A stretch of DNA of 64,000 bases from Mobula hypostoma. Lineage: Eukaryota. A program made the translations under genes and the position numbers. A model generated the notes under the pieces. That model saw only the letters and a program-made list of their open reading frames with translations. It was not told the origin of the DNA and searched no databases. Location: NCBI RefSeq assembly GCF_963921235.1, contig NC_086120.1, positions 8,494,001 through 8,558,000 of the forward strand, given 5' to 3'. Positions 56,431-63,627 of the stretch are shown here, piece by piece (positions within the stretch are counted from its first letter, which is position 1; the number at the start of each line of letters is the position of its first letter).

Positions 56431-58615
56431 CTGAGAGTAAAGACAATTTATTCAAGTGGTAATAGAATAAATTCTTATAATCAAATATTACAATGAAAAC
56501 TGAGGGATTGTTATTTAGCAAAGCACATAATCAGGTTATTCAGCCCATTGGATTTATCTAAGATCCCGATAAAACAACCCCTTTGATGCCAGTTCCATTC
56601 CCCTCACACATGCATTCAAGCTCCCTTTGATTCTTTTCTTTCTTCATTGCTCCGAGGGAAAAATTTCAGTACCATAACTGTGCTGTGCAACGAACATAGA
56701 GCATCAGTGGGAAAGTCAAGCAGTCACAGACAGAACATACAGATATCACATTGACAAGCTCAGGATCAAATCCAGGTCAATGAAGCTGTGAGTTATCAGA
56801 CCAAGAGACAAGCCTCACGTGTAACCAAAGCATTTTTGACCCTACCCTCCCAATGAATGGCCCACTGTTTCTTTAGGAACTAGATGGGAATAAGGGGGAA
56901 CTTGTGCAGCCCTGGGACTGTTAAGTTCAGCTTTACTCTGCACTGTTTTGCCAAAAGCAGCTGCATTCCAAACCAGTGGTCTGATCAATTGTAGGATAAC
57001 AATTGGACGATCGGGGGTGGGGAAGGTTATGCAAACAGATTTATTCCACCCATTCTGTAGCAAACTACTGAATGACAGATTTCACAGCTGATCATAATCT
57101 TGAAAATTGTGCAGGTTCCGAAATCCAGCACAGCTCCTGTGGTCTGAGATGGATGAGAAGGGATTGAGTTGGAAGAGTGTGAGGCCTGGTGTCATGCAAA
57201 TAACTTTTTTACAGAAACAGCGTGGTATCTATGTAAAATGTGGAGCCAGACCCAGAGGAAGATGCTGAAATATACCCAGTAGCAAATCTTAAAAGAGAAT
57301 TGGGCAGGAAAATGGATTAGAAATGTTGAGAATGTTATGGGCAAATAGGACCCAATGGAGATGTAGGTAAAGATCTTATTTGGTATAGGCCAGTTGGTGT
57401 AAGGAGGCTGTTACTCTGTAGTCTGACTCTGTGAACTTTATGCATTCAGAATATGTCAGCTCTCATACTTTGATATTTTCCAAGCACCTGGATGTAAATG
57501 CAATTTTCTACCATTGGTCTGACCAACTGCACAACATGTCTACAAAAGCAGATGAGAGGTTGCAATCTTGCAGCGAGTAAGTCAGCTCCGAACTCACCAA
57601 ATCCAATCTACCAACTGCAAAGCTCAAGGCAGTCATGCGATGGAATGCTCTCCAGTTGTCTGGATGAGAACAGCTTCAACAATACTCAAGAAGATCAAGA
57701 CCATAAGTACTCATATGTGCCTGGCTAAGCCTGTCTTGTTGTTGGCTATGTGGAACAGTCTTCAACCCAAACTTACTCCAGCATCGCTGCCAACTTCTTG
57801 CATTGCACTGATAAACACATCAATAATGTATTCTGATTTCATGCAGAACTTGCCAATTTCACGATTGTTGCCACACACTTTTACACTCCCCTTTAACGAT
57901 GATCATATCTGTTAACACCTTTCTGGTGAAAAAGAAGTAGTTAATGAGCTCAGACACAGATCCACATTTTGATGAGTCACACATTAAACCCGTTGAAAAC
58001 TACTGCGAAATCATTTTATGGCAAGCAACTAGTTCCAATTGCTGCGGTCTCCGTTTTAGCTTTTCCATTGGAAGCGATTATTTCAAATGGTACCACGTGC
58101 ACTGTATTTTCTTTATATTTTGTTTGTATCTTTATTTGGAGTCTTGGCAATCCTGTGTTTTTGCTCAGCTTGTGACGTCAAACTAACTGCAGTAGTAATC
58201 ATTGAAATACACGGATCACTTGAATAATCACACATTTTTTGAACGTTGTTAGGCGGTGACAGGCCAGTGAAAGCTATTTTTTTTAAAGAAACCTCAGAAC
58301 AACTACGACAAATAACCCTAGTCACAATTGTCCCACCAAACATTATCTCTATTAATGTTTTCTCTGCATCTCGATCTTCTCTATGAAGTTCACTGCCTGA
58401 ATGTCTCAGTGTATGAGAATTCCTTTACTCGTCTTCTCTTCTTCATGTAGCTTTCCAATAGATTTCTAAAATACTTTGAGCAGTCATTGTGTACGCTTTG
58501 ATTAAACCGTGGAGGGATGAAGCTTTTAAGAATTTGCTGGAAGATGTTGTAGGTCTCTAACTATGTTCCAGGAAAGCAAATAACCATGGATGTTTCCTCA
58601 TTAGTGACTTTCAAT

Positions 58616-58767
58616 CATTCTCCATGAATGGCTGTGGAAGTAAATTAAGAGAAAAAATGACAGTTAAATTAGATGTTGTTGTCCAGCTCGACTCGCTCAG
58701 TATTTCTCAAGATTTGGATGATGAGCGTGACAGGATGATAAGTAGATGCCTCCTTGTTTGTGCTCAC
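58616..58767 (+). repeat. Left copy of the ~150-bp direct repeat flanking the LTR element
   Basis: Matches 63092-63245 with about 16 substitutions and one 2-nt indel (manual count). Confidence 0.85.
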
Positions 58768-59861
58768 TGTAGCCTCCTGGTAAGCCTCAGGCTCACTCAG
58801 CTCACTTCCGTCTAGGGGGAGCAGCTTTTGGTCCCGCCAAACTGGGTAATCAAGTTTGTGTGGATGCTGCGTGTTGTATCCCCTGTGTAACACCAGTACC
58901 CCAAAATAACATTCAGTCCACAATGAGCCGTTAAACGATTAAGATTTTATATTTAAGTATGGGGGCCTAGTAGAGAAACAAAAGAAAAGGAAAACAAATA
59001 AAAGGTGCCAATAATCTCATAAACATGACCAGTGCACAAACGTTGGAGCCCACGGATTCCCTTTTGCTGATCCTCCTTCGGTCGTCGTTGACTCTTGCAC
59101 TCCCTTCCTTAGCCCAGGTCCAGCAGTTCCTGTAACTGTCTTCTCAAGCTATGTCTTCTCTCTTCATCCTCTTCGTACCTTTTCCCCCCGAAGCCCGTGC
59201 AAACTAACAGCTTTCACACAGACAGAAAGAATAACGTCTATCCCAATTGGTTAATAACTGAATACAAGTTCCATTATCACTAATTATAATCCAAACATAC
59301 TGCTATAGAGAATCAATGTCTCAGCAGTTAACAGTACACATAAGCCATTTTATTCATGTCAGCAGTGACATAAAAAAATGTACCCCTACACTCTCCTACC
59401 ACCAAATTTAGTCATGTCCTTATGACTTCGAAATAACTCGCCAACACTTCCTGCAGACACAAAAACCCAAACAGTAGACCTTACGCCCTGTTCCACAGGC
59501 GCTACATGGGCCAACATATCTGAGAGTTTCCTAATCCTCCTAGACATCCATAACCCCTCATCTAAACCCTTCCGGCTCGGATTCAACTGGAGATACCTCG
59601 GGTCTGCTTGGCAACTCCTCTCTCAATCCCTCACTCATGCCCCGAATGCAACTAGGAACCACCTGTCCCGTGTCCGGGTCACCACTTCTTTTCCTTCAGG
59701 GTCCTATAGTAACCCAGACTGCCCACAGCTAGCCCTCCCCACTACACCTGACTCAGTGGGAGAAGGGCCAAAAGTCTCTTCATCAATCAAGGGGAAGTTA
59801 GCGAAAGGCAGCATGTACACACATCCCGCACGTCATCCGTCGAATCCGTATTTTTCGTCAT

Positions 59862-60224
59862 TTCCTCGATCGGTAGCTGCTGTTTAATTTTCTCCAAACT
59901 GAAGCACTTAGACTGGGCGGCCTCTGCAGCCTCTTCAACCTCCTGTAATCGAGTCGTCAGCTTCATCTCTGACTCCTCCAACTCTCGCCGCAGTCTCAGC
60001 AGTTCTGACCCACGCTTCGTGTCCATCTCCATCTGGGATGCAGTTATCCCACCAACTTCTTCCAATCTGTCTGGATCGATTTTTTTGAGTTTCTGCTGAT
60101 CCTTTCAAAGTCTGGTCATTGTTTCGTTTCTCCGGATTAATTCATCGGTAAATAACCGCTATTTCTGCTTGGATTTCTGTTTCCCGGTCTCCACTTTGCC
60201 GAGCGTGAACTCCAGTTCTTCAGT
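59862..60224 (-). pseudogene. MYH: Captured sarcomeric myosin heavy chain rod fragment
   Basis: ELEFTLGKVETGKQKSKQK*RLFTDEL..ETMTRL*KDQQKL, then [33 protein letters not shown], then [30 protein letters not shown]; three separate rod segments of myosin II. Confidence 0.85.
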
Positions 60225-61239
60225 GGTTGTCCCATGCTGCGGCACTCGCCTCACATCATAGTCTTCCAAGGTGAATCCAAACCCTATGCGATCATCCACA
60301 TACATCAAAGCTCCAAACACCTCCACATCCCCCATGGTCTTCCTCATTCCCCGCAGAAAGGTTGCAGGGGCTCTAGATATGTCCTGGGGCATCTTTTCGG
60401 ACCAGAAGAATCCTAGGGGACCTATAACGGCCGGGTTTCTCATTGTTGGCCTCACTCATCGGGATCTGGCAACATCCACTCCTCAGATCCAGCACATTAA
60501 ACCACGTCGCACCACACAAACAGACAATAGCTTCCTCGGCCCTCAGGGCTGTATTCTGGTCAACGACAATGCGCCTGTTCAGAGTCCTATAATCCACACA
60601 CACGCTGACGACGTCTTCCACAGCTACAGGGCCCAGTCGCCGCAACCTCTCTCTCACCGAGGTGTCTTCAGCGGTCAACTCCCCCACCCCCCCCCCACCC
60701 CCGCGTGGTAGGTCGGAGCATCCCCTAAAAGGGTTTCACCCTCAGATACTTCCCCCAGGCTGTACCACCATCGGCTCTCGTTTAAATTCTGTACCGGCCC
60801 AATGATGCTACACACGTCCTCACAAGCAGCTCAAAACACTGGGTGCACAGACAACGCCCCGGAACAGATCTCACCCGCCTCTTCCTGGCAGGCCCCCTTG
60901 CGCCTCCTCATCAGCGGGTTGTTGGTCCTGTCCAGAATCGAAACGCTGTCCGACTCAACAGTGTTCCGGACACATCAGCACTAACGATTCATGAACATGT
61001 CACACCTCCACCTTAGCTTCCGAAAACTCCAGTTTCACTGACCCATAATCGTCTTCTGAATAATCCCTAGCATTGATATTCCGAATTTCCAGAGCCTTGA
61101 ATGGTGTCGAGAGCAAATGCTTCAAATACCGGTTGCAAAACGAACTGTGCAGCAAATTAACATGCACCACGGTGTCAAGGATGGCTTTAGCATAGCTTCC
61201 ATCTATCCGTAACGACACACACGGGCGTAGGCCCTTTAA

Positions 61240-61580
61240 AAGGCTGATTTATACTGCTGCGTCAACTCAATGCGGTAGTTTCGACGTAACCGCGAACCCT
61301 ACGCAGTGTAACGTGGTTCCCTACGCCGTAGCCTGACGTGCACCCATTCCAAAATGCAATTTCGCGTCGCAGCAACGCAAACCGCAACAACTGTGATTGG
61401 TCCGCTTGGTAGCATTGCATTTCCTCTTGCACCGCAATGGCTTCGCATTGGCCGACTGAAGGGCAGGGAAAGACCTCTGGCTGCAATGCTTTCCATAAAG
61501 ATTTACAGACCTCTGAAATTATGGAGGATACATTTCACTTTTACAAAAAGAGACGCTCGCATTAAACTTGTTGACCCGGA
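61240..61580 (+). mobile_element. Possible PIF/Harbinger-type MITE fragment inserted in the LTR element
   Basis: Starts aaggctgatttatactgctgcg after ttaa, resembling fish Harbinger TIRs from memory; no matching right end found. Confidence 0.4.
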
Positions 61581-63091
61581 GTTCCTTGGTATATTGCTGG
61601 GAACGTGTTCCCCCAGAGACCCCAAGCCGTTCCCCCACTGGGCCTACACTAAGTTTCCCGACACTTCTCTGATCAGCTGAACAACTGAGGGAGGGGCTGA
61701 ACCCTTTAAATGATCCCCCTGGCAGTGCAAACAATTTAGCTGCCCTCCTAGCCACAGAAGATACACTGAAAGCTTTTCCCCAATCTCTGGACACAGGTAT
61801 GGAAAGACCCCCAGATGCTGCATTTTACTTCCAGTCGAACCAAATGTATTTTCCTCCGCTAACATATAACTGGTAGCTGTCGCTACGGAGTAATTGAACC
61901 TGACAGTTCTGACATTGTCAACAGCCCACCTATCCAAACTTCCAACAGAACCCTGTCACTTTCCCTCTGCCAAACACTGCCACTCATCTAACAACTGTGA
62001 AGTCCGCTCCGCCCACGCCTCCACCCCTTTAGGGGTGAATGTTATTCCAAAGACCAGGCCATAGATGGACCATTCAGACCACTCTTTCCCCTCCCTCCTG
62101 ACAGTATTGACAGCCCCTGGCCCCGCCCCATCGGGGCACCAACAGACACTGGCGATCCCACCTCCGTGATGTCAGCGCAAGCCCGCCTGAAGCAAGGTCT
62201 GAGACCGCCAATTTATCAAACTTTTGCGCTACGGTTTCAACTTCACCATCTGCTTTAACCGCACTGAAAAATCGAATTCACAATTCATCCAAGGTACGAA
62301 TATCCACCCCACTCAATCTGTTACTAACCGTAATCCCACAGAGGTACACAATACTAACTGTAATCCTACAGGGAGACACGTTACTGACAGCAATCCCACA
62401 AAGACACAGCAGCACTAATTTAAAAATGGCAATCACACAGCACCCTACAAAAATCCACATCCTGGACGATAGCCGCCACAATGTAGCCCCCTGGTAAACC
62501 TCAGTCTCGCTCAGCTCCCTTCCGTCTAGGGAGAGCAGCCTTCGGCCCTGCCAAACTGGGTATTCAAGTTTGTGTGGATGCTGTGTGTTGTGTCCCCTGT
62601 CTAACATAAGTACCGAAAAATAACACTCAGTCCACACTGTGCTGTTAAATGATTAAGCTTTTATATTTAAGTATAGGAGTTAGTAGAGAAACAAATGAAA
62701 AGGAAAACAAATCAAAGGTGCCAACAATCTCATAATCATGTCCAGTGCACAAACGTTGGAGCTCACAGATTCCCTTTCGTTGATCTTCCTTTGCTCGTCG
62801 TCGACCCCTGGGCCCCGTCCCCTCAGGCCCCCCAATGGGTCCGGCAACTGTCTCCTCAAGCTACGTCTTCTCTCTTCATCCTCTTTACACCGTCTTCCCT
62901 CGAAGCCCTCGCAAATTAACAGCTTTCACACAGACAGAAAGAATAACATCTATCACAATTGGTTAACTATTGAATACAAGTCCTGTTATCACTAATTATA
63001 ACCCAAACATACTGCTATAGAGAACCACTGTCTCAGCAGTTAACAGTACAGAGAAGCCATTTTATTCACCTTAGTGGTAATATAAAAGAAA

Positions 63092-63245
63092 CATTCTCCA
63101 TTCATGGCTGTGGAAGTAACTTAAGAGAAAAAAAATAAAAGTTAAATTAAATGTTGTTGTCCAGCTTGACTAGCTCAGTATTGCTCAAGATTTGGATGAT
63201 GAAGGTGACAGGATGATATGCAGATGCCTCCCTGCCTGTGCTCAC
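63092..63245 (+). repeat. Right copy of the ~150-bp direct repeat
   Basis: See 58616-58767. Confidence 0.85.
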
Positions 63246-63627
63246 TAACAAGAGCTGGAAATAGATCATGACAGTGGTGAGGTTTTGTTGACCTTTGTTC
63301 TGGACTGTCTAGCTAATAGAGGAACTGATTGCACACGTACACTACCAATTTTATGTATCGTGCAGGAATATTTGTAAACTGGCTGATACCTAAAAAGAGC
63401 TTCTCGAAGTCGCTGACTAATTATCTTTAACTGTTGGCTGTTGCCGAAAATTTACTGAATAATTTTAAGATGTAACCTGACATTGGCGGAGTTGTGATCT
63501 CGCAAAAGAGAGTTAAACATACACCAAAGTCTGTGTCTTTAATTCTGTTTCATAATAGGGTAAATTTTCTTACAGTAAAATAGGGTAAAACAGGGCAATC
63601 TGGTGACAAAATTCTTTGACAGTACTT

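What the first reader, a model, noticed from the sequence alone, without database searches (positions are those of the whole stretch)
59862..60224. LTR retrotransposon has captured spliced myosin heavy chain mRNA
Seen: 363 nt between the RT fragment and the 3' region encode three myosin rod segments (about residues 957-1002, 1138-1172 and 1388-1425 in MYH7 numbering from memory), in the element's sense and in frame with the RT piece. One junction falls at a shared LEE(A/S) microhomology. Established from memory: MYH genes have introns at ENK|VKN and EAK|KKL, both crossed here without a gap. Inference: template switching onto co-packaged muscle mRNA, i.e. retrovirus-style gene capture, possibly spread as a non-autonomous family.
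Basis: partly seen in the sequence, partly recalled or inferred. Interest (0 to 1): 0.75.

Follow-up and report, generated by a model that had tools for sequence, protein, structure and literature searches.

The report
Ray retrotransposon carrying spliced myosin fragment
This is one dead copy of an abundant, crippled jumping-gene family in a ray genome that carries an intron-free piece of a host myosin-tail gene in place of its integrase, likely picked up once from messenger RNA and then whittled down by deletions that mostly keep the reading frame open, which hints that being translatable, not the myosin protein, would help it spread.

Summary
Confirmed, with corrections. Window 59862-60224 (minus strand) is myosin-rod sequence inside a decayed Ty3/gypsy LTR element, in frame with its RT remnant. 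The parent is not MYH7 or MYH16 itself but an MYH16-type paralog at G000:C68:14.48-14.74 Mb (81-90% DNA identity), with no motor exon found. The copy crosses four of its introns (39, 19, 2.7, 24 kb), so the cargo came from spliced mRNA. I read 89 chimeric copies; there are likely several hundred. Sister copies keep exons this copy lacks, so the three 'segments' are mostly later microhomology deletions from one capture of about 1.6 kb. The 5' switch shares 10 of 11 nt with myosin-free relatives. Of 12 shared cargo deletions, 12 keep the frame, against 2 of 8 inherited LTR indels. Amino acids are unconstrained (N/S 2.6 shared, 2.5 private). One frameshift is shared by 4 copies, so the bias is not absolute. 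The mechanism is known (LTR-mediated retroposition; maize Bs1); the scale and frame bias are unusual. The scan found this family before on other DNA of this genome.

The parts
62482..63090 (-). 5' LTR; outer end lacks about 12 nt, inner end is ...CA
   Evidence: K2P distance to the 3' LTR 0.16
62459..62478 (-). Decayed primer-binding site; the family's PBS matches the 3' end of tRNA-Pro
   Evidence: the family PBS stretch is identical to tRNA-Pro genes in 7 of 30 pattern loci (L264 and L265 overlap)
61734..62024 (-). gag remnant (PNMA domain), broken
   Evidence: Pfam PF14893 26.6 bits, cut-off 25
61240..61579 (.). Insertion private to this copy, unrelated repeat
   Evidence: absent from sister copies; partial matches in only 2 other loci
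60778..61234 (-). Protease-region remnant of pol (domain name recalled, no Pfam hit)
   Evidence: 75% identical to myosin-free relative L214
60249..60605 (-). RT remnant, N-terminal part deleted
   Evidence: 72-79% identical to relatives, two of which (L208, L214) have RVT_1 hits; no Pfam hit for the window piece itself
60177..60248 (-). Cargo: 3' part of host exon A (C68:14524969-14525196)
   Evidence: 63/72 identical
60071..60176 (-). Cargo: host exon B, joined to A across a 38,885-nt intron
   Evidence: 85/105 identical
60033..60070 (-). Cargo: start of exon C (across a 19,393-nt intron), then a 429-nt skip at an 11-nt microhomology into exon G
59968..60032 (-). Cargo: exon H 1-60 (across a 2,681-nt intron), then a skip at a 6-nt microhomology to the last bases of exon K
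59853..59967 (-). Cargo: exon L (across a 24,248-nt intron) up to the 3' switch back to the element
   Evidence: 89/104 identical; junction
59404..59851 (-). Post-integrase tail of pol
   Evidence: 69-74% identical to myosin-free relatives
59391..59403 (-). Polypurine tract
58768..59390 (-). 3' LTR, TG...CA
58613..58767 (.). 155-bp flank, repeated at 63089-63246 (88% identical), in place of the family's 4-bp target-site duplication
   Evidence: no other match in 1.78 Mb of fetched loci

Best explanation
This is a dead copy of a non-autonomous Ty3/gypsy family whose integrase region is replaced by intron-free sequence of a host MYH16-type rod gene, likely by one template switch onto that gene's mRNA, and which was likely copied afterwards by enzymes of intact relatives. 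Shown: the cargo is spliced, it comes from the C68 gene, the joints carry microhomology, and subfamilies differ by nested deletions of one piece about 1.6 kb long. Inferred: reverse transcriptase left the element RNA just after RNase H at an 11-nt similarity to exon A and returned in the post-integrase tail. Later rounds of reverse transcription likely deleted further pieces at short repeats. Shown: shared deletions in cargo, pol and gag are nearly all multiples of three, while the cargo's amino acids drift freely. Inferred: spreading lineages were favoured for a translatable gag-to-tail frame (RNA stability or packaging), and the myosin sequence is a passenger.
For: Splicing: 30 of 30 copies score better against spliced than unspliced host sequence at all four junctions; the K|L joint reads exactly as spliced in 8 of 8 other-subfamily copies. 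Parent: 86-92% for sister copies, against 76-78% over short stretches for MYH16 on C36 and 69-78% for other paralogs. Family: 40 of 40 scored hits are near full length, from 826 candidates; 89 exact matches to a pattern over the G|H splice, reversed control 0; exact 4-bp TSD in 9 of 16 full-length copies. One capture: L215 keeps RNase H up to exon A base 1, where 5 of 8 myosin-free relatives share 10 of 11 nt with the host; deletion types cluster on a tree (6 changes against 23 shuffled). Non-autonomy: relatives hold RT, RNase H and integrase domains; the window copy holds only PNMA. Frame: 9 of 9 recurrent cargo deletions in 69 copies and 3 of 3 new ones in 20 further copies, against 2 of 8 inherited LTR indels (Fisher p 0.002 for 9/9 vs 2/8) and 3 of 22 private small cargo indels. 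No amino-acid constraint: N/S 2.61 shared, 2.50 private, p 0.9.
Against: A +1 insertion in exon A is shared by 4 copies (L155, L157, L179, L188) and is not in a homopolymer; four other small out-of-frame indels are shared by 2 copies each. A 35-nt deletion in the 3' tail is shared by 3 copies, and some pol deletions have out-of-frame variants in pairs of copies. Repeats in coiled-coil DNA are in frame 52-77% of the time anyway, so the 12-of-12 result has P about 0.002 with a length-matched null but only 0.04 with a flat 0.77; two 27-nt events may be one. Private small indels and shared large deletions arise differently, so that control is imperfect. The deficit of shared stops is not significant (p 0.09-0.22). 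The myosin-free relatives are only 65-79% identical and are themselves decayed, so the true helper is not identified. Samples were the best hits of four searches, not a random draw.
Confidence: 0.8

Rival explanations
1. Same capture and spread, but the open frame is a by-product: deletions happen at short repeats, and repeats in coding DNA are mostly in frame. Nothing about translation is selected.
For: In-frame share of exact repeats in the host mRNA is 0.52-0.77. One frameshift spread to 4 loci. No significant stop deficit. Ty1 is reported to mobilise defective elements as well as competent ones (PMC3945221, passages).
Against: 12 of 12 cargo events. Pol deletions 357, 99, 87, 42, 150, 159, 177 and joints 270, 387, 990 are multiples of three against relative L206; gag deletions 87, 96, 78, 102, 108, 18 against L214. 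No small frameshift is shared by 3 or more copies in the RT or gag pieces, apart from one shared by 52 that I read as the reference's own.
Confidence: 0.35
2. The gag-RT-myosin fusion protein has a function, for example the coiled coil helps it join particles or it was co-opted by the host.
For: Both capture joints and most deletions keep the frame. Family sequence, cargo included, is in contigs of 4 of 4 runs guessed to be RNA, from two organisms. Gag and RT pieces have lower shared N/S (ratios 0.64 and 0.66).
Against: Cargo N/S ratio is 1.05; gag and RT ratios are not significant (p 0.22, 0.18). Subfamilies keep different, partly non-overlapping myosin pieces. The longest open stretch in the regions scanned is 496 codons in 69 copies and 591 in 20. 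The RNA status of the runs is a guess and no silent control was laid.
Confidence: 0.08
3. The myosin piece first became an L1-type processed pseudogene in DNA and entered the LTR element later, by recombination or read-through.
For: The 5' switch sits at the first base of exon A as defined here, and the 3' joint has only about 3 nt of shared sequence.
Against: No free retrocopy was found: exon H 66-246 has 1 match and exon K 2 matches in the genome (host gene, MYH16). The 5' joint has 10 of 11 nt similarity, the pattern described for LTR-mediated retrocopies (PMC5131818, sections 6 and 9).
Confidence: 0.07
4. The stretch is a transposon's own coiled coil or a chance likeness.
For: No Pfam myosin hit for the 121 residues.
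Against: 81-90% DNA identity to five separate host exons, in order, with breaks at GT-AG introns.
Confidence: 0.01

Closest known systems
LTR-mediated retrocopies of animals (Tan et al. 2016, PMC5131818; abstract and sections 6 and 9 read; supplements not seen)
   Same: Partial spliced mRNA flanked by discontinuous LTR element; microsimilarity at switch points; sense orientation and in-frame fusion; secondary retroposition as a non-autonomous element.
   Different: Their cases are young and few per genome; here hundreds of old copies in several subfamilies with nested deletions. [quoted passage not shown]
Maize Bs1 (as described in PMC5131818 section 9)
   Same: LTR element carrying captured exonic sequence, with shared switch points among copies.
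   Different: Bs1 has 1-5 copies and three parent genes; this family has one parent gene and far more copies.
[quoted passage not shown]
   Same: Works like it: helper-dependent genome, open frame kept, protein sequence free to drift.
   Different: RNA virus without integration; shown by experiment there (per the title), inferred from indel statistics here.
Transducing retroviruses carrying oncogenes (recalled, no call)
   Same: Spliced host mRNA replaces viral genes; helper needed.
   Different: There the captured protein drives spread; here no amino-acid constraint is seen, and no env domain was found in two relatives scanned.
MYH16, masticatory myosin (PMC11050549, passages)
   Same: The parent shares MYH16's rod exon borders and is closest to MYH16-like proteins: 58% over 349 aa, against 52-54% for other heavy chains.
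   Different: True MYH16 with a full motor lies on C36. The parent is a separate, long-intron paralog whose matches begin at the start of the rod.

Membership tests
Ty3/gypsy LTR retrotransposon | Two LTRs with TG...CA ends | tested here: met
   3' LTR complete; 5' LTR lacks about 12 outer nt in this copy; both ends intact in sisters
Ty3/gypsy LTR retrotransposon | tRNA primer-binding site and polypurine tract | tested here: met
   Family PBS identical to tRNA-Pro 3' ends; decayed in the window copy; PPT at 59391-59403
Ty3/gypsy LTR retrotransposon | Domain order gag, RT, RNase H, integrase | tested here: met
   Met in myosin-free relatives L208 and L214; in the chimera integrase is replaced
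Ty3/gypsy LTR retrotransposon | Short target-site duplication | tested here: met
   Exact 4 bp in 9 of 16 copies; the window copy itself has a 155-bp duplication instead
Ty3/gypsy LTR retrotransposon | RT phylogeny placing it in a named clade | not tested
   No reference RT set was fetched
Autonomous LTR element | Intact RT, RNase H and integrase | tested here: not met
   Only PNMA hits in the window copy; large pol deletions in all chimeric copies viewed
LTR-mediated retrocopy (Tan et al. 2016) | Intron loss relative to a parent gene | tested here: met
   Four introns crossed, 30 of 30 copies; K|L rests on 5 nt of K, exact in 8 of 8 others
LTR-mediated retrocopy (Tan et al. 2016) | Element sequence on both sides, no poly(A) or L1-type duplication at the cargo | tested here: met
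   pol sequence directly on both sides
LTR-mediated retrocopy (Tan et al. 2016) | Microsimilarity at switch points | tested here: met
   5' switch 10 of 11 nt; 3' switch only about 3 nt, weak
LTR-mediated retrocopy (Tan et al. 2016) | Co-transcription from the LTR | tested here: inconclusive
   Contigs of 4 runs guessed to be RNA cover RT and cargo, one bridges the joint; no strand, no silent control
MYH16 (masticatory myosin heavy chain), for the parent gene | MYH16-type rod sequence and exon borders | tested here: met
MYH16 (masticatory myosin heavy chain), for the parent gene | N-terminal motor domain | tested here: not met
   No motor exon in 160 kb upstream; 54 of 54 genome-wide candidates for a conserved motor exon scored, none at C68:14.x Mb
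MYH16 (masticatory myosin heavy chain), for the parent gene | Expression in jaw muscle | not testable with these tools
   No tissue-labelled RNA available

The most novel reading that the evidence does not exclude
A vertebrate LTR family behaves like a defective interfering virus: having swapped its integrase for a slice of a motor-less MYH16-like gene, it spread to hundreds of sites under selection to stay translatable from gag to tail whatever the protein says, leaving a fossil series of frame-keeping deletions. The donor is itself an undescribed headless vertebrate myosin rod, in effect a paramyosin-like gene, that must have been transcribed in the germ line.
Probability: 0.4. Interest if true: 0.72.

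Novelty: new variant of a known kind. Interest (0 to 1): 0.5.

Why it matters
It shows that an LTR-captured host fragment can ride to hundreds of copies in a vertebrate, far beyond the handful reported for Bs1 or the animal retrocopies in the paper read. The nested subfamilies give a natural test of whether helper-dependent retroelement RNA must stay translatable. The copies already produce false gene models, one named 'myosin heavy chain, skeletal muscle-like' (P0003). The donor points to a possible headless myosin in rays.

Tried and rejected
MYH16 on C36 as parent: rejected, 76-78% over short stretches only. Non-muscle, smooth and fast-cluster genes: rejected. A second capture or helper recombination to explain different 5' joints (my note 4): dropped once L215 showed all can be deletions. 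Raw gap lists were split by the aligner; net deletions were used, and its A>A 99 row was dropped as a misaligned RT-myosin joint. The middle's output was cut, so pol deletions were seen for about 21 of 27 copies. A 'stop shared by 9 copies' proved to be a double change, not a stop. Dating with the epaulette shark rate of 7e-10 per generation (PMC10587355, passages) gives about 60 million generations, which is implausible; no calibrated age is offered. Run search with a host intron stretch: no RNA holder listed on record. Presence in other ray or shark species was not examined by reads. Protein searches found no orthologue of the parent: exon H returned conventional myosins at 55-67% among the 120 listed of 2007, exon A nothing; weak evidence. 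PMC189091 is not held. Literature searches found no report of this family or of a headless MYH16 (by listings; zero hits); subscription journals are not covered. No structure prediction was run: it would not separate the explanations.

Full report
Observation. The minus strand of 59862-60224 translates to 121 codons with two stops. Ten of 11 PDB hits are myosin heavy chains, best E 3.7e-7, in three separate rod stretches. Upstream the same frame reads into an RT-like remnant. The whole lies between direct repeats of about 620 bp, 84% identical, with a TG...CA 3' LTR at 58768-59390, a polypurine tract at 59391-59403 and a decayed primer site after the 5' LTR.

Host. The genome has 3.48 Gb in 200 contigs. 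Four database proteins labelled Mobula hold the same chimera, and P0002 is identical over 120 residues to the translation of copy L012, so this is very likely a devil ray.

Parent gene. MYH16 with a full motor lies on C36 but matches the cargo at only 76-78% over short stretches; fast-type genes match at 69-78%. A second MYH16-type gene at C68:14.48-14.74 Mb matches sister copies at 86-92% and the window copy at 81-90%. Its exons A-H have GT-AG borders and an open frame, and its rod exons continue to the tail end. No motor exon was found in 160 kb upstream, and none of 54 scored genome-wide candidates for a conserved motor exon lies there. It looks headless; a transcript is needed to prove it.

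Splicing. The window copy crosses introns of 38,885, 19,393, 2,681 and 24,248 nt. All 30 copies of the first sample score better against the spliced than the unspliced junction at all four. The last test is confounded, because only 5 nt of exon K remain, but 8 of 8 copies of other subfamilies show that joint exactly as spliced.

Family. All 40 scored hits of 826 candidates cover nearly the whole query at 87-89% (self 100%). A pattern over the G|H splice has 89 exact matches and its reversed control none. Only 15 of 64 sampled copies match that pattern exactly, which suggests 380 or more copies. I read 89 distinct chimeric copies: 69 from three searches, after removing duplicates, 3 loci interrupted by other insertions and 11 myosin-free relatives, plus 20 from the pattern. 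Exact 4-bp target duplications flank 9 of 16 full-length copies. The family's primer site equals the 3' end of this genome's tRNA-Pro genes. LTR pairs of 19 copies differ by a median K2P of 0.086 (0.058-0.139); the window copy is the most diverged at 0.16. Two myosin-free relatives give 0.089 and 0.105, so they were active in the same period. Relatives L208 and L214 hold PNMA, RT, RNase H and integrase domains; the window copy only PNMA.

One capture, then deletions. In the protease-piece search 27 of 30 loci carry myosin, in at least five layouts; several keep whole exons C, D and most of E. L215 keeps RNase H up to the first base of exon A. There 5 of 8 myosin-free relatives share 10 of 11 nt with the host exon, the expected trace of a template switch. 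The 3' switch lies near base 104-112 of exon L with only about 3 shared nt. The captured span is about 1.6 kb and replaces about 1.55 kb of pol. The window's first internal joint is a 429-nt skip at an 11-nt repeat, seen in 38 of 69 copies; its second is a skip at a 6-nt repeat, seen in 64 of 69. No copy keeps the sequence inside the second skip, so it is early or dates from the capture. Deletion types cluster on a tree of 63 copies (6 changes against 23.4 shuffled; bootstrap not settled).

Frame. Nine recurrent deletions in the cargo are all multiples of three (60, 72, 429, 27, 93, 21, 105, 630, 378; the 93 and 21 are parts of compound 219 and 126). A subfamily found by a separate search added three more (120 in 6, 27 in 18, 9 in 19 of 20 copies). 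Deletions in pol (against L206) and gag (against L214) behave alike; other relatives give values off by 1-2, which I ascribe to their own indels. In LTRs only 2 of 8 inherited indels are multiples of three with L217 as reference, 1 of 7 and 2 of 7 with two others; Fisher p 0.002. Against this: repeats in this coiled-coil DNA are in frame 52-77% of the time, so 12 of 12 has P between 0.002 and 0.04. A +1 insertion is shared by 4 copies, four small out-of-frame indels by 2 copies each, and a 35-nt tail deletion by 3. The bias is strong, not absolute.

Protein constraint. At non-CpG sites of the cargo, N/S is 81/31 for variants shared by 4 or more copies and 267/107 for private ones (p 0.9). Gag and RT pieces give ratios of 0.64 and 0.66, not significant. 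Stops shared by 5 or more copies sit at CGA codons or one TGG codon, with carriers from different subfamilies. The myosin sequence behaves as a passenger.

Expression. Contigs of 4 of 4 runs guessed to be RNA (two organisms, two studies) cover RT remnant and cargo, and one contig bridges the joint. Without a control this only shows that transcription is possible.

Mechanism and comparison. The anatomy is that of LTR-mediated retroposition with secondary amplification (PMC5131818, abstract and sections 6 and 9). Template switching and copying in trans are inferred from that model. Selection for translatability is inferred from the indel statistics; I put it at about 55-60%. Precedents are a coronavirus defective RNA study seen only as a title and a remark that minimal translation may stabilise Ty1 RNA (PMC3945221, passages). 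My searches found no paper on this family. The scan's own notes describe it from at least 9 other pieces of this genome, including the headless parent and the open frame. Those are unchecked notes; I had noted both ideas before looking and tested them here.

Verdict. Real, a new variant of a known kind. Interest 0.5.

Noticed in passing
window 58613-58767 and 63089-63246: A 155-bp direct repeat (88%, K2P 0.12) flanks the element in place of a 4-bp target duplication, and the 5' LTR lacks its outer 12 nt or so. It is unique among 1.78 Mb of fetched loci. This suggests an aberrant one-ended integration.
   Followed up: partly
G000:C68:14480496-14737192 (L083-L094, L076-L079, L103-L112): MYH16-type gene with open rod exons, introns up to 39 kb and no motor exon found; about 0.6 Mb from the fast myosin cluster. 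Possible headless myosin; no orthologue in two protein searches.
   Followed up: partly
window 61240-61579: 340-bp insertion private to this copy, partly matched (81%) in L217 and L092; an unclassified repeat.
   Followed up: partly
L101, L157, L162 and window 62300-62460, just after the primer site: The frame leading into gag starts with a hydrophobic, cysteine-rich stretch and a 30-nt tandem unit (about 6 copies in L101) that keeps the frame. It could be a signal-like leader.
   Followed up: no
L206, L211-L214 versus host exons A-L: The captured span (about 1.6 kb) nearly equals the pol span it replaced (about 1.55 kb). Chance or a size constraint.
   Followed up: no
P0002-P0005: Database gene models in two Mobula species are copies of this element; one is named as a skeletal myosin heavy chain.
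   Followed up: yes
G000:C18:48745314-48746731, C50:30689110-30689772, C21:138691427-138692201: Long intron-free matches to the myosin-tail profile with several stops that did not match sarcomeric queries at 38% or more; unidentified coiled-coil genes or retrocopies.
   Followed up: no
L158 (G000:C21:133.65 Mb): A copy is interrupted at the myosin joint by a retrovirus-like RT fragment of another kind.
   Followed up: no
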